37,722 nt of DNA from IMG/VR virus record IMGVR_UViG_3300020161_000333, positions 1-37,722 of that record, one strand, 5' to 3'. Made by a program: the position numbers and the translations under genes. This document shows, in pieces, positions 1,389 to 33,258 of the stretch. The notes below the pieces were generated by a model, which was not told where the DNA came from, ran no database searches, and saw nothing but the letters and a program-made list of their open reading frames with translations. This DNA is from a virus (Duplodnaviria; Caudoviricetes). How positions within the stretch are numbered: position 1 is the first letter of the stretch; each line of letters opens with the position of its first letter.

Positions 1389-1461
1389 AAACTGCGGATT
1401 CTTTATTGTTGGTTTAATTGTTGGCGCATTGTTGCTCTGGTGTTTTTTCTATTTTATTTAA
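1375..1461 (+). CDS. 28-aa hydrophobic peptide
   Basis: MQYSENCGFFIVGLIVGALLLWCFFYFI*; start overlaps the end of the upstream gene. Confidence 0.45.
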   Translation: MQYSENCGFFIVGLIVGALLLWCFFYFI

Positions 1462-1480
1462 CTCAATAGGACAATACAAA

Positions 1481-2116
1481 ATGTATATTAATATTAAGAC
1501 CGTTAACGCTCTCGCTAAATACATCGCACCAAAAGATGATATTCGTTACTACCTTAATGGGATTTTGCTGGAAATTACGGATAAAGCAAGATTTTATGCC
1601 GCTACTGACGGGCACAAAATGGTTGTTATTCGAGAAGAAAGGCAAGAGGGCGACGAATCAGGGCAATGGATTTTGCCGCGTGATATCGTTCTTGGAATTA
1701 AACTAAGCAAACGTCCGGTAATTGATATCGCAGAATTTAATCAAGAAAATGGCAAGGCAAGTATTAAATATTGCGGTACTGAAACATCCTTTGGACTGAT
1801 TGAAGGAAAGTTTCCAGAATGGCGCAGGGTTATACCTGTTTCTACGTCCGGGGAAATTGCACAATTTAACCCTGATTATTTAGTCGCAATCCGTGACTGT
1901 GCAAAATCCACTGTTGGAACAGCCGGATATTGTGGTTTGTCTCTATTGCATAACGGAACTTCGGCATCACTCTACCAAGCTAACGATATAAACTTTATCG
2001 CGGTTATCATGCCACTGCGTATTAACAAAGCTGATGTTTATTCACCCAATCAGGACGTACTAAGCAATTATTGGGGTTTTTCTAAGCCACTGGAAAGCGT
2101 GAAAAATGCAGCATAG
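1481..2116 (+). CDS. DNA polymerase III beta-clamp-like protein, shortened (211 aa)
   Basis: DnaN motifs DIRYYLNGILLE, AATDGHKM, LIEGKFPEWRRVIP, FNPDYL, AVIMPLR; AGGA RBS before ATG 1481. Confidence 0.8.
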   Translation: MYINIKTVNALAKYIAPKDDIRYYLNGILLEITDKARFYAATDGHKMVVIREERQEGDESGQWILPRDIVLGIKLSKRPVIDIAEFNQENGKASIKYCGTETSFGLIEGKFPEWRRVIPVSTSGEIAQFNPDYLVAIRDCAKSTVGTAGYCGLSLLHNGTSASLYQANDINFIAVIMPLRINKADVYSPNQDVLSNYWGFSKPLESVKNAA

Positions 2117-2307: not shown

Positions 2308-2349
2308 GGTATTATGTTAGTGAGCGCTTACACTGTAAACAATACGCGC

Positions 2350-2450
2350 ACAGGGCGACACAGGGCGACACAGGGCGACACAGGGCGACACAGGGCGACC
2401 ACAGGGCGACCACAGGGCTACCACAGGGCGACCACAGGGCGACCACAGGA
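2350..2450 (+). repeat. Tandem array of ACAGGGCGAC(C), 9 units plus a partial one, 10-11 bp period
   Basis: Read directly; one variant ACAGGGCTAC; no spacers. Confidence 0.95.
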
Positions 2451-2704
2451 AATGCGAGAAAATGCGCTAACTTGTTGTTTTATTTGGTTTTTTCTGGGCT
2501 TCAGTTACCAAAAAAATCGCCCTATTTCCGACAAGTTTATGTGGTTATCGCGGTGCAACATAGCTTTTTAATGCCCCTTTTTATACACCCCCGACTCACT
2601 TTTAAAAAAAAAATTTAACATCATTTTCCGGGCGGAAAATTTTAGGGGGAAAAATTATTTTTTGGGCTGGCGGGAATTAAATAATAAGAATATTTTTTTT
2701 ATTT

Positions 2705-7581: not shown

Positions 7582-7610
7582 TTGCGCCTATAAAAAAAAG
7601 CATTTAATAT
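7582..7610 (+). promoter_or_regulatory. Rightward sigma70 promoter
   Basis: TTGCGC-17 bp-TAATAT, back to back with the leftward promoter. Confidence 0.45.
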
Positions 7611-7616
7611 CGGTTT

Positions 7617-7992
7617 GCCTGTGAAAAAGACAGGTCGCTCTGTGGCGGAGTGCGAAGTGTAGCGAACCCTTACACATTGGGTTTCGGTCTTGATGTGCGA
7701 CTTTCTACACTTTGCGCCCATCTACGCCGCGACCTAAACCCAAGCTGTAAGGGTTTTTCATTGGCCGTACTGTCCGCGATAGCAATGGGCTTGTATGGGC
7801 CGCTGACAAGAATACACATGGAGCGTACTCACACGGTGCGTATCCTTCGCGGCGTGTCAGAGAGCGACCGCACAAAATAGATGGTCTATAGGTGAGACAA
7901 GCCTTCTATTGATGAATCTCTGCCTTCGGGTGCTGTAGGTTTCTCAGGAGCCATTGAGACACTAGCAGAAAGTGATGTTGGCTATCACCTTT
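7617..7992 (+). ncRNA. Putative large structured RNA or leader (~370 nt), family unknown
   Basis: Nested stems: 7618-22/7630-34, 7633-41/7861-69, 7665-74/7746-55, 7677-89/7731-43, 7803-08/7855-60, C(UUCG)G loop 7924-29, 7972-76/7984-88; GC-richer than flanks; no convincing ORF. Confidence 0.6.
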
Positions 7993-8001
7993 GGGGAACC
8001 T

Positions 8002-8388
8002 ATGCTTATAAAAAACGATTTATTTCTACAGCAAATAAAAGATTTTAGTGGGCTAAGATTTAATTCAATTTCCCCCACCGACATTGATGGTTTCCTAGAT
8101 TTTGGAAATAGATTATTTGTCTTTATAGAAACTAAGTTTGGGGATTCGCAGCTTCAATACGGCCAGCGGTTAGCTTTAGAACGTCTGTGCGATGCAACTC
8201 ACAATCCGCCATCGCGCAATTCCATTGTTTTAATAACCCGGCACGATACCCAAGCTGGTGAAAAAATTGATTTAGCCAAAAGCATTGTTTTTAAATATCG
8301 GTTTGATAAAAAATGGGCAATTTGCGAACCAATTTCATTGTTGGACACAATAAATCTGTTAAGAATCAAATACTTATCAAAAAAATAA
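8002..8388 (+). CDS. Putative PD-(D/E)xK nuclease-fold protein, 128 aa
   Basis: PTDIDG...FIETK...GQ motif order resembles VRR-NUC-like nucleases; GGGGAA RBS before ATG 8002. Confidence 0.6.
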   Translation: MLIKNDLFLQQIKDFSGLRFNSISPTDIDGFLDFGNRLFVFIETKFGDSQLQYGQRLALERLCDATHNPPSRNSIVLITRHDTQAGEKIDLAKSIVFKYRFDKKWAICEPISLLDTINLLRIKYLSKK

Positions 8389-8396
8389 AATAATTG

Positions 8397-8426
8397 TTTA
8401 CTTTTACTTAATTATCAATTTATGAT
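8397..8426 (+). promoter_or_regulatory. Putative sigma70 promoter
   Basis: TTTACT-18 bp-TATGAT in an AT-rich gap before an AAGGAG RBS. Confidence 0.4.
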
Positions 8427-8454
8427 GTATTCACCTTAACAAAGGAGATACGAC

Positions 8455-8664
8455 ATGACACAAAACGACATTATCAAGAATCATTTTAAGAATCATAAAA
8501 CCATCACTACCCTGCAAGCGTTTTCGATGTATGGCATTACGCGACTTGCCTCAAGAATCCTTGAACTGCGCGAATCTGGAATGAAAATTTCCGGTTACAT
8601 GATTGACGTTAAAAATCGTCGCGGCGAGATTGTTAAAGTTAAAAAATACTACGTGGGGAAATAA
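8455..8664 (+). CDS. Phage helix-turn-helix protein
   Basis: ITTLQAF..YGITRLASRILELRESG; AAGGAG RBS. Confidence 0.8.
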   Translation: MTQNDIIKNHFKNHKTITTLQAFSMYGITRLASRILELRESGMKISGYMIDVKNRRGEIVKVKKYYVGK

Positions 8665-8903
8665 TGGACATTGGCGGAGAATTTACAACAACCGTTTGTG
8701 ATATTGACGGTAATCAGCATGAAGTCACTGTTCGATACAAAGGTTATTACTTTCCCCCAATTCGCAATTGTTCGTCCGAAGGTTCATTTCCAGCAGAGGG
8801 CTATATTGACCTTGAAATAGATTACCCGGCCGGTATTAAGTTTGCAGATTTAGAAGAATATCTCCACGATAAAGCATGGGAGCATTACGATGGAAGATTT
8901 TGA
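8664..8903 (+). CDS. Small acidic hypothetical protein
   Basis: TAATG coupling; GGGG RBS. Confidence 0.7.
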   Translation: MDIGGEFTTTVCDIDGNQHEVTVRYKGYYFPPIRNCSSEGSFPAEGYIDLEIDYPAGIKFADLEEYLHDKAWEHYDGRF

Positions 8904-9186
8904 GATTTTCTGGAAAGCATATCCCCGGCGTGTAGCCAAAGCAGTAGCAAGGAAAGCATGGATTCAAACCGCAAGGATTAGACCTTCGCTTGAAGAATTG
9001 CTTAAAGCCATTGAAACGCAATGCGAGTCTGAACAATGGCAAAAAGACGGTGGACAATACATTCCGCACCCTGCGACTTGGCTTCGTGGTGAACGCTGGT
9101 CTGATGAAATGGAAGTCAACGTAAAACCTAAACAATCGCAAACATTGTCCGCGATTTACAGTCTGCAATTACTTAAAAATGGATAA
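8890..9186 (+). CDS. Stand-alone C-terminal domain of a phage replication initiator
   Basis: FEIFWKAYPRRVAKAVARKAW...YIPHPATWLRGERWSDE, normally the C-terminus of O-like replisome organisers. Confidence 0.7.
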   Translation: MEDFEIFWKAYPRRVAKAVARKAWIQTARIRPSLEELLKAIETQCESEQWQKDGGQYIPHPATWLRGERWSDEMEVNVKPKQSQTLSAIYSLQLLKNG

Positions 9187-9388
9187 CGTCAACCATCCCA
9201 AGCATTACACAAATCATCCATCTGGGATTGAATGTATCCAAGTAACTGAACACATGAATTTTTGCCTCGGAAACGCCATTAAGTATTTATGGAGAGCAGA
9301 TTTAAAAAACGGGGTGGAAGATTTAAAAAAAGCGGCTTGGTACATCAACAGAGAAATTCAGCGGAGGGAAAATGTGGCTAAAGAATGA
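9179..9388 (+). CDS. DUF3310 (SaV/T7 gp1.7-like) protein
   Basis: DNVNHPKHY...IECI...FCLGNAIKYLWR...EDLKKAAWY. Confidence 0.9.
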   Translation: MDNVNHPKHYTNHPSGIECIQVTEHMNFCLGNAIKYLWRADLKNGVEDLKKAAWYINREIQRRENVAKE

Positions 9389-9719
9389 AATCGTTGACGG
9401 TCTGCAAAGATTAATTTCTTTGCGGCTAAGAAACGCTCCTTCAGCCGATACGGTTACTGCGACTGCCGTGGTTTGGTGTGAAACGGTAGCCAGCAGACCG
9501 ATTTCTTGGGATGAAAGGCTAGACAGGAAACGCATTAAAACGGCTTTTAGCGAGTTGTGCGCGACAGTTGACAGCTTTCCTTCGCCAGCACAATTCCTGC
9601 GAGTCCTGCCGCCGCGTGAGCAAGCGTTATGCCTTCCGCAACCGCAGTCAGCAGAACTTTCTGCGGAGAACAGGCAAAAACTGAGTACTTTGTTAAAAAG
9701 ACTTAGAACAGTTAATTAA
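9372..9719 (+). CDS. Hypothetical protein, possible helicase-loader-like
   Basis: VW...AF...FPSPAQF pattern and position after an initiator-like gene; function inferred. Confidence 0.55.
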   Translation: MWLKNEIVDGLQRLISLRLRNAPSADTVTATAVVWCETVASRPISWDERLDRKRIKTAFSELCATVDSFPSPAQFLRVLPPREQALCLPQPQSAELSAENRQKLSTLLKRLRTVN

Positions 9720-9724
9720 TTAAC

Positions 9725-9807
9725 GGGCGAGTGGTGAAATTGGTAAACACAGCAGACTTAAAATCTGCCGCTAACGCTTGCCGGTTCGATTCCGGCCTCG
9801 CCTACCA
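9725..9807 (+). tRNA. tRNA-Leu(TAA)
   Basis: Acceptor GGGCGAG/CTCGCCT, D-loop TGGTA, anticodon arm GCAGA-CTTAAAA-TCTGC, variable arm, T arm GCCGG-TTCGATT-CCGGC, encoded CCA. Confidence 0.95.
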
Positions 9808-30835: not shown

Positions 30836-31867
30836 TTAAGCACCGTAGAGCCGAACTCCCGCGAATACATCACGAATGGTAGAGCAAGTACGCTTTTCCG
30901 CATACAAAGTAACAAAGCCCGGAGCAGTTTGTTCCATCATTTGCAGCTTCATTTCTTCGTTATCCGCAATCGTCACAAAACGATTCCAAGCGGCAAGATA
31001 AACGGGGAATTTACCGCTTCCGGCTACATCCATATACGGATTAGGAATTACAGGGAAACCGGCGATATGCCCAACTGCGTAACCGTCAACTTCGCCAATA
31101 TCAAGGAACAGCGGCAGTTGTTGGTCGTCGCGCAGTTCGCGCAGATTCTTAATTGTCGTAGGGTGCATCATCCAAGCGGTAGAAGGATTGTTCCAATACT
31201 GCGAGGGTAACGCAGATGCAAGATTCATAATGTCGTTATAACCGACAGAGGCCGCACTAGCTTGGGCAACTTGCAACATCGTATGCCGACCATTGGTATC
31301 AGCCGAACCACTGGTGCCGAACGCCGCTGCACTGGTTGAACCCGTGTAGAAATTCAATCCGCGCAGACCGTCAGTGCTACCAGTTTGCGGAGTAGCAGTT
31401 CCGCTAGAAAGGTCATTGTTCAGAACCATGCTCAAACCTTCTTGTTGGGCAAATTCCAAAGCAATATCTTCAACAATGGTTTCTTGCAGATTATCAATGT
31501 CGGACATAACAGCAGTCCGAATCGGCACAACAGCGTTAATACATTTCAGCGAAATTTGCCAAAACGAAGCGCCGTAATTACCGACGTTATTCTTTACACC
31601 GTAGCCCCACGGATTAGTAGAACCCGTTTGAATTACGGTAGCGTCACCAGTTTTGACAACAAATGCTTCATCGGAGCCAATGGTAGTAATAACACGACTC
31701 ATCATGCGAATAGGGTTAGCGTATCGCAAAGCAGCGAACGCATCGTCGTAAATAACTCGACCGCCGACACCTGAACCCGAAGCGGTAAGCGTAGATGCCT
31801 CTGCGAGATTTACAGTCGCCTCGCCTTCTTTAAGTGTTTTCTTTACTGCTTCAAGAATCAGGCTCAT
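30836..31867 (-). CDS. Second HK97-fold capsid protein paralogue, lacking the long N-terminal scaffold domain
   Basis: Colinear similarity to 31927-33258 (ASTLTASGSGVGGR / SSTLTGSGAGIGGR; LRYANPIR / LRLANPMR; GLRGLN; PGFVTLYAEKR / PGFITFYGEKR). Confidence 0.88.
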   Translation of the reverse strand: MSLILEAVKKTLKEGEATVNLAEASTLTASGSGVGGRVIYDDAFAALRYANPIRMMSRVITTIGSDEAFVVKTGDATVIQTGSTNPWGYGVKNNVGNYGASFWQISLKCINAVVPIRTAVMSDIDNLQETIVEDIALEFAQQEGLSMVLNNDLSSGTATPQTGSTDGLRGLNFYTGSTSAAAFGTSGSADTNGRHTMLQVAQASAASVGYNDIMNLASALPSQYWNNPSTAWMMHPTTIKNLRELRDDQQLPLFLDIGEVDGYAVGHIAGFPVIPNPYMDVAGSGKFPVYLAAWNRFVTIADNEEMKLQMMEQTAPGFVTLYAEKRTCSTIRDVFAGVRLYGA

Positions 31868-31890
31868 AAATATTCCAATCTAATTTTATG

Positions 31891-31920
31891 AAAAGAGGGG
31901 AGCAGGTTTCCCCGCCCCCC
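31891..31920 (-). terminator. Terminator between the two capsid genes
   Basis: GGGGGGCGGG-GAAA-CCTGCTCCCC followed by TCTTTT on the minus strand. Confidence 0.75.
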
Positions 31921-31926
31921 GCCTTT

Positions 31927-33258
31927 TTACAGAGCGCCCGTAGCGGTGGAGCGATACCGAATGATGCTGAACGGGTCAACTACGCTGGTGCAAAGCCGTT
32001 TCTCGCCGTAGAACGTGATGAAACCGGGGAGAGTTTGGTCGTAACGGCGCATAACCATGTTCAGACGGTCAACGATGGTATGTCCACGGCTCCAATCACC
32101 GAAATACATCGGATACAGCGAGTCAGTGCCCGGAGAAGCATCGGGAGCAGTCGGATTGTCAAGATATTTATTCACGACAACATCGAAGCCGAGCAGACGA
32201 CCAACAATACCGTTAGTTTCCAGCGGGGCCATACGCTCAAACACCGGAGTACCGTTATCGTCAACCAGACCACGGATGCCAGCAAGCATCAGCGGGTTAA
32301 TGATAAAGCGGCAACCCGGAGTCCAATACTGTTGCGGCAGGTCATGGATAAAGTCAATCAGGTCTTTGTAACTGACGTTATTTGCCGAACCCGCAGCATT
32401 GGTCGTAATCTGGTCATACGTTGCAATGTCATGCAGACCAGACGAAGAACCAGTGCCGGTTGTGCCAAAATCAGCAACAGTGATTTCACCCGGAGCATAC
32501 GTCGCAGCAGCGCCAGCGTATTGATTCAGACCGCGCAGACCATTCGTGCCGCCATAAGCCGCACCTGCATCTTGGTCGTCGTTCTTAATCATCGACAGTG
32601 CTTCAACTTCCGAGAATTCAACCAGCATGTCCGAAACCACGTTGCTTTCCAGACCATCAATATCGTCCAGCGCAGCGGTACGAATCGGGAATTGCACGTT
32701 CAGGTCTTGCAGCGTCAGTTGCCAGATGTTCGTGCCAACAGTCGTTGCGCCACCGTTGTTCTGAATGGTGTAACCCCAAGCAGGGCCGGTATTGCCGATT
32801 TTGGCGCGGAACTGATACGTTGCGCCTTCCGTCGAAACATTACGCGAAACACCACGCATCGGGTTAGCAAGACGCAGCGGAACAAACATCGGGTCATACG
32901 CGGTGCGACCGCCGATGCCAGCGCCAGAACCAGTCAGAGTCGAACTTTCTTTGAAGAAAGCATCGTATTGGCCTTCGTCAGCGAACATCTTGATTTCTTT
33001 TTCCATCGTGCGACTGGATTTGTAGAAATCGCGCAGTTGTTCTTTGACCGAACGGTTCACATCTTCACGAACGCTTTTAGCGATTTTGATAATCGCCGGG
33101 GTTTGAATCGCGGCAACTTTGGCTTCCAGCGCAGCGACTTGTTCCGTCACTTGGGTTTTTACTTCTTCCAGCGACTTAGCAACTTCGCCTTTGATTTCTT
33201 CCACTTTGGCGACATTAGCCGCTTCAATGGCATCCAGCTTTTCAATGACTTCTTTCAT
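31927..33258 (-). CDS. Major capsid protein, HK97 family
   Basis: N-terminal coiled-coil delta domain; RLLGFDVVVNKYL, YFGDW; follows the protease. Confidence 0.95.
   Translation of the reverse strand: MKEVIEKLDAIEAANVAKVEEIKGEVAKSLEEVKTQVTEQVAALEAKVAAIQTPAIIKIAKSVREDVNRSVKEQLRDFYKSSRTMEKEIKMFADEGQYDAFFKESSTLTGSGAGIGGRTAYDPMFVPLRLANPMRGVSRNVSTEGATYQFRAKIGNTGPAWGYTIQNNGGATTVGTNIWQLTLQDLNVQFPIRTAALDDIDGLESNVVSDMLVEFSEVEALSMIKNDDQDAGAAYGGTNGLRGLNQYAGAAATYAPGEITVADFGTTGTGSSSGLHDIATYDQITTNAAGSANNVSYKDLIDFIHDLPQQYWTPGCRFIINPLMLAGIRGLVDDNGTPVFERMAPLETNGIVGRLLGFDVVVNKYLDNPTAPDASPGTDSLYPMYFGDWSRGHTIVDRLNMVMRRYDQTLPGFITFYGEKRLCTSVVDPFSIIRYRSTATGAL

What the first reader, a model, noticed from the sequence alone, without database searches (positions are those of the whole stretch)
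7617..9719. Candidate RNA-dependent replication module: structured RNA, headless initiator and loader-like gene
Seen: 8890-9186 is only the C-terminal YPR..K / HPATWL domain, with no N-terminal DNA-binding domain or internal iterons. A separate HTH (8455-8664) and a loader-like ORF (9372-9719) share the operon, and no helicase, primase or polymerase is encoded. Known: O-like initiators bind iterons inside their own gene, whereas ColE1 starts from a folded RNA primer/R-loop. Inference: the RNA may replace the origin-binding domain, or the initiator is split into HTH plus C-domain.
Basis: inference. Interest (0 to 1): 0.8.

Follow-up and report, generated by a model that had tools for sequence, protein, structure and literature searches.

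The report
Folded RNA replaces phage initiator's head
This uncultured phage has lost the DNA-binding half of its replication-starter protein and carries instead a conserved folded non-coding cassette, one of several swappable kinds found only in such phages, which likely serves as an RNA-opened starting point for copying the genome.

Summary
8890-9186 encodes only the C-terminal domain of an O-like initiator. This headless form marks a lineage of phages, not a broken gene. The structured region has two parts: a leader (7617-7760) with two mutually exclusive covarying helices, one terminator-like, and an uncatalogued ~250-nt module W (7765-8015) with covarying helices and a pseudoknot. One of four exchangeable modules (W, Rfam Betaproteobacteria-1, two others) lies upstream of 68 of 78 headless genes and 0 of 108 full-length ones. 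In 22 whole headless genomes, W (11) and Betaproteobacteria-1 (9) are single-copy and never together; 0 of 29 full-length records have either. Betaproteobacteria-1 also sits directly behind primase genes. The split-initiator idea fails: the HTH is in 4 of 22 genomes. The loader-like gene is weakly G39P/lambda-P-like and is in only 2 of 22. Best reading (about 0.45): a transcription-gated origin opened by RNA, with the headless protein and loader bringing in the host helicase. Rivals are a folded-ssDNA origin or a purely regulatory RNA. Nothing is shown experimentally, the headless phages are related to each other, and the resemblance to the ColE1 origin is not significant.

The parts
7582..7610 (+). 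Probable early promoter P1 (-35 at 7582-7587, -10 at 7605-7610, 17-nt spacer); transcript start near 7617
   Evidence: Read by eye from the sequence; below the scan threshold. Relatives have the same layout, with near-consensus hexamers in L044 and L042.
7617..7760 (+). Leader switch: helix A (7633-7662 with 7705-7734) versus terminator-like helix B (7665-7689 with 7731-7755) followed by a U-run; the two are mutually exclusive
   Evidence: Both conformers are predicted in all 11 homologues. The cognate pairing is best in 10 of 11 (A) and 11 of 11 (B) cross-pairings. No Rfam match.
7765..8015 (+). Module W: uncatalogued structured element; 5' pseudoknot (7766-68/7776-78 with 7771-74/7805-08), further helices, and a conserved 3' tail (CACC, G-run 7993-7996, CTATG 8000-8004, A-rich run); candidate origin
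   Evidence: 24-sequence alignment. 14 of 18 pairs change on both sides; slid controls are paired at 32-45% versus 99.5% (helices were picked from the same alignment). 17 G-U against 0 A-C cells in four helices place the fold on the + strand.
8002..8388 (+). Accessory 128-aa ORF starting at the ATG in W's tail; possibly nuclease-like
   Evidence: Present in L003 and L005; absent in L001, L002, L004, L036 and L042. Only VRR-NUC at E 0.25.
8397..8426 (+). Second promoter-like site P2, in front of the protein genes
8455..8664 (+). HTH_39 winged-helix protein; likely a regulator, not the missing initiator head
   Evidence: Pfam PF14090, E 2e-13; found in 4 of 22 headless genomes.
8664..8903 (+). 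79-aa unknown ORF, exchanged in relatives
8890..9186 (+). Headless O-like initiator (C-terminal helical domain only)
   Evidence: single copy in 22 of 22 genomes. Model pLDDT 76; weak fold matches only (G39P Z 4.7, DnaD-like domain Z 3.6).
9179..9388 (+). DUF3310 protein, accessory
   Evidence: absent between the two genes in L004, L005, L036 and L042.
9372..9719 (+). Putative helicase loader (G39P / lambda-P-like helical bundle)
   Evidence: Model pLDDT 95.5. SPP1 G39P ranks first in Foldseek (E 1.8) and ties for first in VIA (Z 6.6, rmsd 2.7, 67 of 67 residues). A lambda-P cluster scores 0.92 in the Atlas (rank 15).
9725..9807 (+). tRNA-Leu(TAA) closing the cluster

Best explanation
The phage lacks an origin-binding initiator domain and carries in its place a promoter-driven folded cassette (leader plus module W) that likely is its replication origin, probably held open by its own transcript, with the headless initiator domain and the loader-like protein predicted to load the host helicase there. 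Shown by sequence comparison: the headless gene, two exclusive leader folds, the covarying W fold on the transcribed strand, and one exchangeable module per genome. Inferred steps: (1) RNA from P1 first folds as helix A and reads through into W; if the 5' box is occupied, for instance by accumulated terminated leader RNA as in P4 immunity, helix B forms and transcription stops, which would limit initiation. (2) The folded W RNA would stay hybridised at the G-run/CTATG/A-rich tail and displace a strand, giving an R-loop and perhaps an RNase H-cut primer. (3) The C-domain would bind the opened strand and, with the loader, load host DnaB; host primase and polymerase would do the rest. Because the origin is opened by RNA, the DNA-binding head and iterons would be dispensable, and modules could be swapped without changing the protein.
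For: A module lies within 2.5 kb upstream of 68 of 78 headless genes (61 of 71 without the 7 loci fetched through a module) and 0 of 108 full-length genes; 0 of 123 whole full-length loci have one. Whole records: W in 11 (2 of them weak partial matches) and Betaproteobacteria-1 in 9 of 22 headless genomes, single copy, never both; neither in 29 full-length records. Starting from W instead: 34 of 46 loci have the headless gene downstream, and 2 of the 10 without it carry a headless member of a second O-like family, phrog_678. The slot is the one where leaders of this design run straight into the ATG of a full-length initiator (e.g. L013, L015, L017, L066, read by eye). Betaproteobacteria-1 also begins at the stop codon of Toprim_3 primase genes (12 of 12 such ORFs submitted were confirmed), follows helicase-primase in cultured Acidovorax phage AP1, and precedes primase-helicase genes in 3 loci. 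The tail ATG is conserved although 71 of 85 open frames are under 30 codons. In L001 and L002 the element is followed directly by P2, so it is the leader of no gene. No DnaB_C or Toprim_3 in 22 of 22 genomes.
Against: There are no experimental or expression data. The headless phages are one related lineage with similar gene order, so the counts are not independent events, and few full-length controls come from the same habitat. The module profiles were trained on the loci they count. W alone is no more stable than shuffles (z 0.06). The 3' tail resembles the ColE1 origin and ranks that site first in ColE1, but 18% of shuffles reach the score. The tail also looks like a ribosome-binding site: 10 of 85 ATGs, including this window's, start ORFs of 50 aa or more, and module G ends at a real start codon. 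No antisense promoter was found. G-T pairs are tolerated in DNA too, so the strand bias does not prove RNA. The loader family is in only 2 of 22 genomes. 10 of 46 W loci show no C-domain of this family within 2.5 kb (8 show none of either family), and one phage type has W with a 77-aa-headed protein.
Confidence: 0.45

Rival explanations
1. The cassette is a regulatory RNA only (attenuator plus antiterminator or small RNA) for the early operon. Its link to the headless gene reflects shared ancestry, and the phage replicates by recombination or host restart, using Erf, YqaJ, SSB and NinG, with the C-domain and loader as helicase adaptors or inhibitors.
For: The leader resembles P4 seqA/CI control (PMC4825925, passages). 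The W tail reads as Shine-Dalgarno plus ATG and is used by real ORFs in 10 of 85 cases. The recombination genes are present. The headless phages are related to each other. An earlier AI note on another genome read a Betaproteobacteria-1 leader this way (not independent evidence).
Against: Modules are absent from all 123 full-length loci, although several of these have the same leader design. Betaproteobacteria-1 recurs behind primase genes in a different replication module. Downstream genes have their own promoter-like site, and most tail ORFs are tiny. W also occurs with a second headless initiator family.
Confidence: 0.25
2. W is an origin but works as folded single-stranded DNA: a primase or primosome assembly site like ssi/sso elements, exposed by transcription or strand displacement, with the C-domain recognising the folded DNA.
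For: The sister module sits directly behind primase genes. Covariation cannot tell ssDNA from RNA, as PMC5737381 states for its plasmid motifs (passages). There is no sign of RNA I-type control.
Against: The element lies behind a promoter and a terminator/antiterminator switch, on the transcribed strand. C-UUCG-G loops recur in W (their RNA specificity is recalled knowledge). Closely related proteins go with unrelated modules W, B, F or G, which argues against sequence recognition by the phage protein.
Confidence: 0.2
3. The initiator is split: HTH 8455-8664 supplies origin binding and the C-domain supplies helicase recruitment.
For: The HTH lies upstream on the same strand in the window and in its closest relatives.
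Against: HTH_39 is found in only 4 of 22 headless genomes; in two of those four it is more than 1.5 kb from the gene, and in one it is on the other strand.
Confidence: 0.04
4. The origin is the 11-nt array at 2338-2460 (iteron-like).
For: A real array of 7 copies; the region is shared with one 95%-complete relative.
Against: No match in two complete headless genomes, G001 and G004. No iteron-binding domain is encoded. Unrelated short arrays come and go near promoters of sister phages (L044 has one; L043 and L046 do not).
Confidence: 0.03

Closest known systems
ColE1-type replicon (RNA II primer, RNA I antisense; PMC4555960, passages read; record NC_001371)
   Same: A promoter-driven structured transcript proposed to open the origin without an origin-binding protein. 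Its 3' end has a G-run, CTATG and an A-run, like the RNA II end in the record.
   Different: No sequence match to plasmids; the tail resemblance is not significant. About 390 nt rather than 555. No antisense promoter found. Control seems to be a same-strand terminator switch. The phage keeps an initiator C-domain and a loader.
Lambdoid initiator-loader modules (lambda O/P, SPP1 G38P/G39P; division of labour recalled)
   Same: O-like C-terminal domain followed by a small G39P/lambda-P-like gene; host helicase, primase and polymerase are needed.
   Different: No N-terminal DNA-binding domain and no iterons; a non-coding cassette sits upstream instead.
Phage P4 immunity leader (seqA / CI RNA / seqC; PMC4825925, passages)
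   Same: A leader in front of replication functions, with an upstream box complementary to a stretch inside a downstream hairpin and a terminator alternative.
   Different: No Rfam C4-type match. The phage has no integrase or repressor among the ORFs scanned. What is gated appears to be a non-coding module. Processing to a trans-acting RNA is untested.
Rfam RF02932 Betaproteobacteria-1 RNA (orphan; attribution to Weinberg 2017 is recalled, the main text does not name it and the supplement could not be read)
   Same: Fills the same slot in sister phages, mutually exclusive with W.
   Different: The window's module does not match it; it has a different sequence and fold.
ARRPOF, GEBRO and PAGEV plasmid motifs (PMC5737381, passages)
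   Same: Structured elements of about 220-350 nt tied to replication, with RNA versus ssDNA left open; ARRPOF lies in a region that replicates without rep.
   Different: They occur on plasmids of other phyla; no Rfam match here; no headless initiator is described with them in the passages read.

Membership tests
ColE1-type replicon | Pre-primer RNA from a promoter several hundred bases upstream of the origin | tested here: inconclusive
   Promoter by eye at 7582-7610, conserved in relatives; transcript not observed.
ColE1-type replicon | Antisense RNA I from the opposite strand | tested here: inconclusive
   No minus-strand promoter site within the element in the consensus scan, which also misses P1.
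ColE1-type replicon | RNase H cleavage and Pol I extension | not testable with these tools
   Needs host mutants.
ColE1-type replicon | No replicon-encoded initiation protein | tested here: not met
   Initiator C-domain in 22 of 22 genomes.
ColE1-type replicon | Sequence relationship to ColE1-family origins | tested here: inconclusive
   No meaningful blastn match in 72,556 plasmids; the tail profile ranks the ColE1 origin first, but 18% of shuffles score as high.
Lambda O/P-type initiator-loader module | Initiator with N-terminal origin-binding domain | tested here: not met
Lambda O/P-type initiator-loader module | Iterons inside the initiator gene | tested here: not met
   None among the 20 largest direct-repeat families listed.
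Lambda O/P-type initiator-loader module | O-like C-terminal domain | tested here: met
   phrog_270, E 5e-23.
Lambda O/P-type initiator-loader module | Adjacent helicase loader | tested here: inconclusive
   G39P fold Z 6.6, lambda-P cluster 0.92, no Pfam hit.
P4 CI / P1 C4 antisense leader | Upstream box complementary to a hairpin-borne sequence, with a terminator alternative | tested here: met
P4 CI / P1 C4 antisense leader | Match to the Rfam C4-type models | tested here: not met
P4 CI / P1 C4 antisense leader | Processed small RNA acting in trans | not testable with these tools
   Needs RNA data.
Rfam Betaproteobacteria-1 (RF02932) | Score above the gathering threshold | tested here: not met
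   No hit in the window; hits in sister phages.

The most novel reading that the evidence does not exclude
A widespread group of lytic phages has replaced the protein half of origin recognition with RNA. A family of unrelated, swappable structured RNAs (W, Betaproteobacteria-1, F, G) opens and primes the origin by R-loop formation under control of a leader switch, and headless initiators of at least two protein families, or a phage primase, only load the host replisome. This would give a function to an orphan Rfam motif and define an undescribed class of phage replication module.
Probability: 0.4. Interest if true: 0.85.

Novelty: new variant of a known kind. Interest (0 to 1): 0.72.

Why it matters
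Many small environmental phages encode no recognisable initiator, helicase, primase or polymerase, and how they start replication is open. This finding offers a concrete, cloneable candidate origin of about 400 nt with two small trans-acting proteins. It adds an uncatalogued RNA family (W) and two more modules (F, G), and ties the orphan Betaproteobacteria-1 motif to two different replication gene sets. One of those sets is in a cultured phage (Acidovorax phage AP1), which makes the question directly testable. About 170 stored viral stretches hold the W tail pattern and about 330 the Betaproteobacteria-1 pattern (scan estimates; the latter includes chance matches).

Tried and rejected
Folding strength alone does not discriminate well: a 200-nt window with z below -3 lies upstream of 21 of 23 headless and 36 of 78 full-length genes (counted by hand), because leaders and terminators are general. 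Rejected: split initiator; the 2350 array as origin; frameshift fusion with the upstream ORF; the tail ATG as a conserved gene start. The ColE1 tail likeness was noticed after the fact and is inconclusive. A proposed pairing of the GGUG loop with the loop of the third helix had no support (1 of 16); its pairing with the 3' CACC was weak (7 of 16), and the UUCG helix showed no cross-pairing signal (1 of 11). No PDB sequence match for the C-domain alignment and only a chance one for the loader. Foldseek gave nothing for the C-domain, and DnaT was not among the rows listed. No match to the RNA region in cultured phages. The W tail pattern in GTDB genomes gave 16 stretches; one was inspected (a Betaproteobacteria bin contig, W-like by eye) and the others were not checked. 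No RNA holder was listed by the run search. The complex prediction of C-domain with loader was not run. A local HTH/loader co-occurrence script was lost with the script machine and was replaced by whole-record searches. Literature searches found no description of this module or of a function for Betaproteobacteria-1 (listings only, open-licence library only). The supplement of PMC5737381, which could not be read, may comment on that motif's gene context.

Full report
Setting. The window is a whole 37.7-kb virus record with terminase, portal, capsid, tape measure and tail fibre genes, Erf, YqaJ, SSB and NinG, and no integrase, helicase, primase or polymerase among the ORFs scanned. The finding lies at the start of a rightward early unit, back to back with the recombination operon.

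The protein is truly headless. 8890-9186 matches residues 177-261 of the 383-position profile phrog_270 and the C-terminal parts of two similar initiator/primosomal families. Of 32 viral loci found with it, the five closest are headless; the other 27 have an N-terminal extension or are cut by a contig end. A search limited to 53-172 aa returned 94 proteins, of which I aligned 53 that begin at the domain. The ORF in front differs between relatives, which excludes a conserved frameshift head. The model is a small helical bundle with only weak matches (G39P Z 4.7, a DnaD-like domain Z 3.6), so its ssDNA or helicase binding is inferred from family position, not shown. The downstream 115-aa protein folds confidently. 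Its best match is SPP1 G39P (Foldseek rank 1 but E 1.8; VIA Z 6.6 over all 67 residues, tied with an unrelated chain), and a lambda-P cluster is near it in the Atlas: loader-like, weakly. It occurs in 2 of 22 near-complete headless genomes. Headless proteins with this gene next to them end about 25 residues after the domain, while those of L047-L058, where I saw no such gene, carry about 50 (part was cut from view); the extension may replace the loader (inference). HTH_39 occurs in 4 of 22, which rejects a split initiator.

The non-coding region has two parts. The leader (7617-7760) starts 7 nt after a promoter-like site whose layout is conserved in relatives. In all 11 homologues it can fold as a rod A, available to the nascent RNA, or as a rod B followed by a U-run. 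Both are kept by compensatory change: the cognate partner is best in 10 of 11 and 11 of 11 cross-pairings. The middle of helix A is hypervariable, as expected of a specificity determinant. Leaders of the same design, by eye, precede full-length initiator genes directly, so this part is a general control switch, close in logic to P4 seqA/CI (PMC4825925, passages). The second part, module W (7765-8015), is in no Rfam family. In 24 sequences, five short helices, including a 5' pseudoknot, are 99.5% paired with 14 of 18 pairs changing on both sides, against 32-45% when slid (the helices were chosen from the same alignment). G-U cells outnumber A-C cells 17 to 0 in four helices, so the + strand folds. 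W alone is not unusually stable (z 0.06).

Co-occurrence. Behind the leader, headless phages carry one of four unrelated modules: W, Rfam Betaproteobacteria-1 (B), and two more seen first in L004 (F) and L043 (G). Profiles of the four hit 68 of 78 headless loci with at least 1.5 kb upstream, one module each, and 0 of 108 full-length loci. Leaving out the 7 loci fetched through B gives 61 of 71. Loci were merged only when the domain DNA was identical. Whole full-length loci: 0 of 123. One of the ten misses shows a divergent W-like module by eye (L308), and in L045 the genes sit in the opposite operon about 4 kb from the element. In whole records, W is in 11 (2 weak) and B in 9 of 22 headless genomes, single copy (one terminal-repeat duplicate), never both; G007 has F; G009 has neither W nor B. 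Neither is in 29 records chosen as full-length, of which 10 virus records are at least 90% complete. Starting from the RNA: of 46 W loci with 2 kb downstream, 34 have the headless gene, 2 were flagged as longer (one is headless from its first Met, one has a 77-aa head), and 10 have none; two of these ten have a headless phrog_678 O-like protein. Of 39 B loci with 1.5 kb downstream, 11 have the headless gene, none a full-length one, and 28 neither. Many of the B loci without the gene have B starting at the stop codon of a ~280-aa primase gene (12 of 12 such ORFs submitted are Toprim_3), and three have a primase-helicase gene downstream. Cultured Acidovorax phage AP1 has helicase, primase, then B. 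So the modules track replication genes in two different gene sets and avoid initiators that have their own DNA-binding head. The main weakness is ancestry: the headless phages are related, I built no tree, and few controls share their habitat.

Mechanism. The simplest reading is that the modules are origins. RNA rather than DNA is favoured by the promoter, the termination switch in front, the strand, and recurring C-UUCG-G loops, but none of this is proof. W ends in CACC, a G-run, CTATG and an A-rich stretch. The ATG mostly opens frames under 30 codons (71 of 85), so it is conserved for another reason. The ColE1 primer ends in a similar string (record; primer table in PMC4555960), and the W tail profile ranks that site first in ColE1, but 18% of shuffles score as high, so I give it little weight. 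I put an RNA-opened origin at 0.45, a purely regulatory RNA at 0.25, a folded-ssDNA origin at 0.2, and the split initiator and the 2350 array at a few percent each.

Comparison and novelty. It would work like ColE1 at the origin, like P4 at the leader and like lambda O/P at helicase loading, but it fails membership tests for ColE1 (an initiation protein is encoded) and for O/P (no head, no iterons). Seven literature searches found no account of it (listings only), and the supplement most likely to discuss B could not be read. Earlier AI notes on other genomes describe similar cassettes with divided readings; they are leads, not support. Verdict: a real, widespread, uncatalogued module, probably an origin; a new variant of RNA-dependent initiation; interest 0.72.

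Noticed in passing
L134, L136, L138, L143, L147, L168, L179, L185, L192, L194-L196; L539:3450-3573: The orphan Rfam Betaproteobacteria-1 motif starts at or just behind the stop codon of Toprim_3 primase genes, including in cultured Acidovorax phage AP1 (helicase-primase-motif).
   Followed up: partly
L004:1795-1980, L074, L253, L257, L288, L290, L303, L336 (module F); L043, L044, L046 (module G): Two further uncatalogued ~190-250-nt modules in the same slot; several F copies also end in TTGGTCG..CTATGG. Their structures were not analysed.
   Followed up: partly
L013, L015, L017, L066, L072, L103, L117 (upstream of full-length initiators): Leaders with a 5' box complementary to the loop of a long U-tailed hairpin precede many full-length initiator genes; none of the 20 full-length loci scanned hit Rfam.
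   Followed up: partly
L047-L058 and the L242-L321 group: Headless proteins of these groups carry a ~50-aa C-terminal extension (W..T..GI..K..E.G motif), and the whole records tested from them lack the separate loader gene; possibly a fused helicase-binding domain.
   Followed up: no
L454, L430, L475: The W tail pattern lies upstream of a C-domain fused to a 77-aa head that looks ribbon-helix-helix-like by eye: an exception to the headless rule.
   Followed up: no
L127:2630-2971, L476:1798-2283: Other small replication-type proteins stand behind modules: one resembling a further initiator C-domain (by eye; no Pfam or PHROG hit), one lambda-P-like by eye (phrog_1524, E 1.6e-4).
   Followed up: partly
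window 2338-2460 and 170-248: Two G-rich short tandem arrays (11-nt and about 16-nt period) in intergenic DNA; the region of the first is shared with G002 but not with G001 or G004.
   Followed up: partly
window 30836-33258: Two adjacent genes (343 and 443 aa) both match major-capsid family phrog_10.
   Followed up: no
window 1418-2116: Partial sliding-clamp-like protein (DNA_pol3_beta_2, E 7e-8) in a small operon at the left end.
   Followed up: no
L401-L519, downstream of W; L052, L055, L056 upstream of the promoter: A recurring imperfect palindrome of the form TAGGG.AAAC.CCTA follows W or precedes promoters in many relatives, perhaps an operator; not seen at these places in this window.
   Followed up: no
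window 9725-9807: tRNA-Leu(TAA) directly behind the loader gene, also present in L004, L005, L036 and L042.
   Followed up: partly
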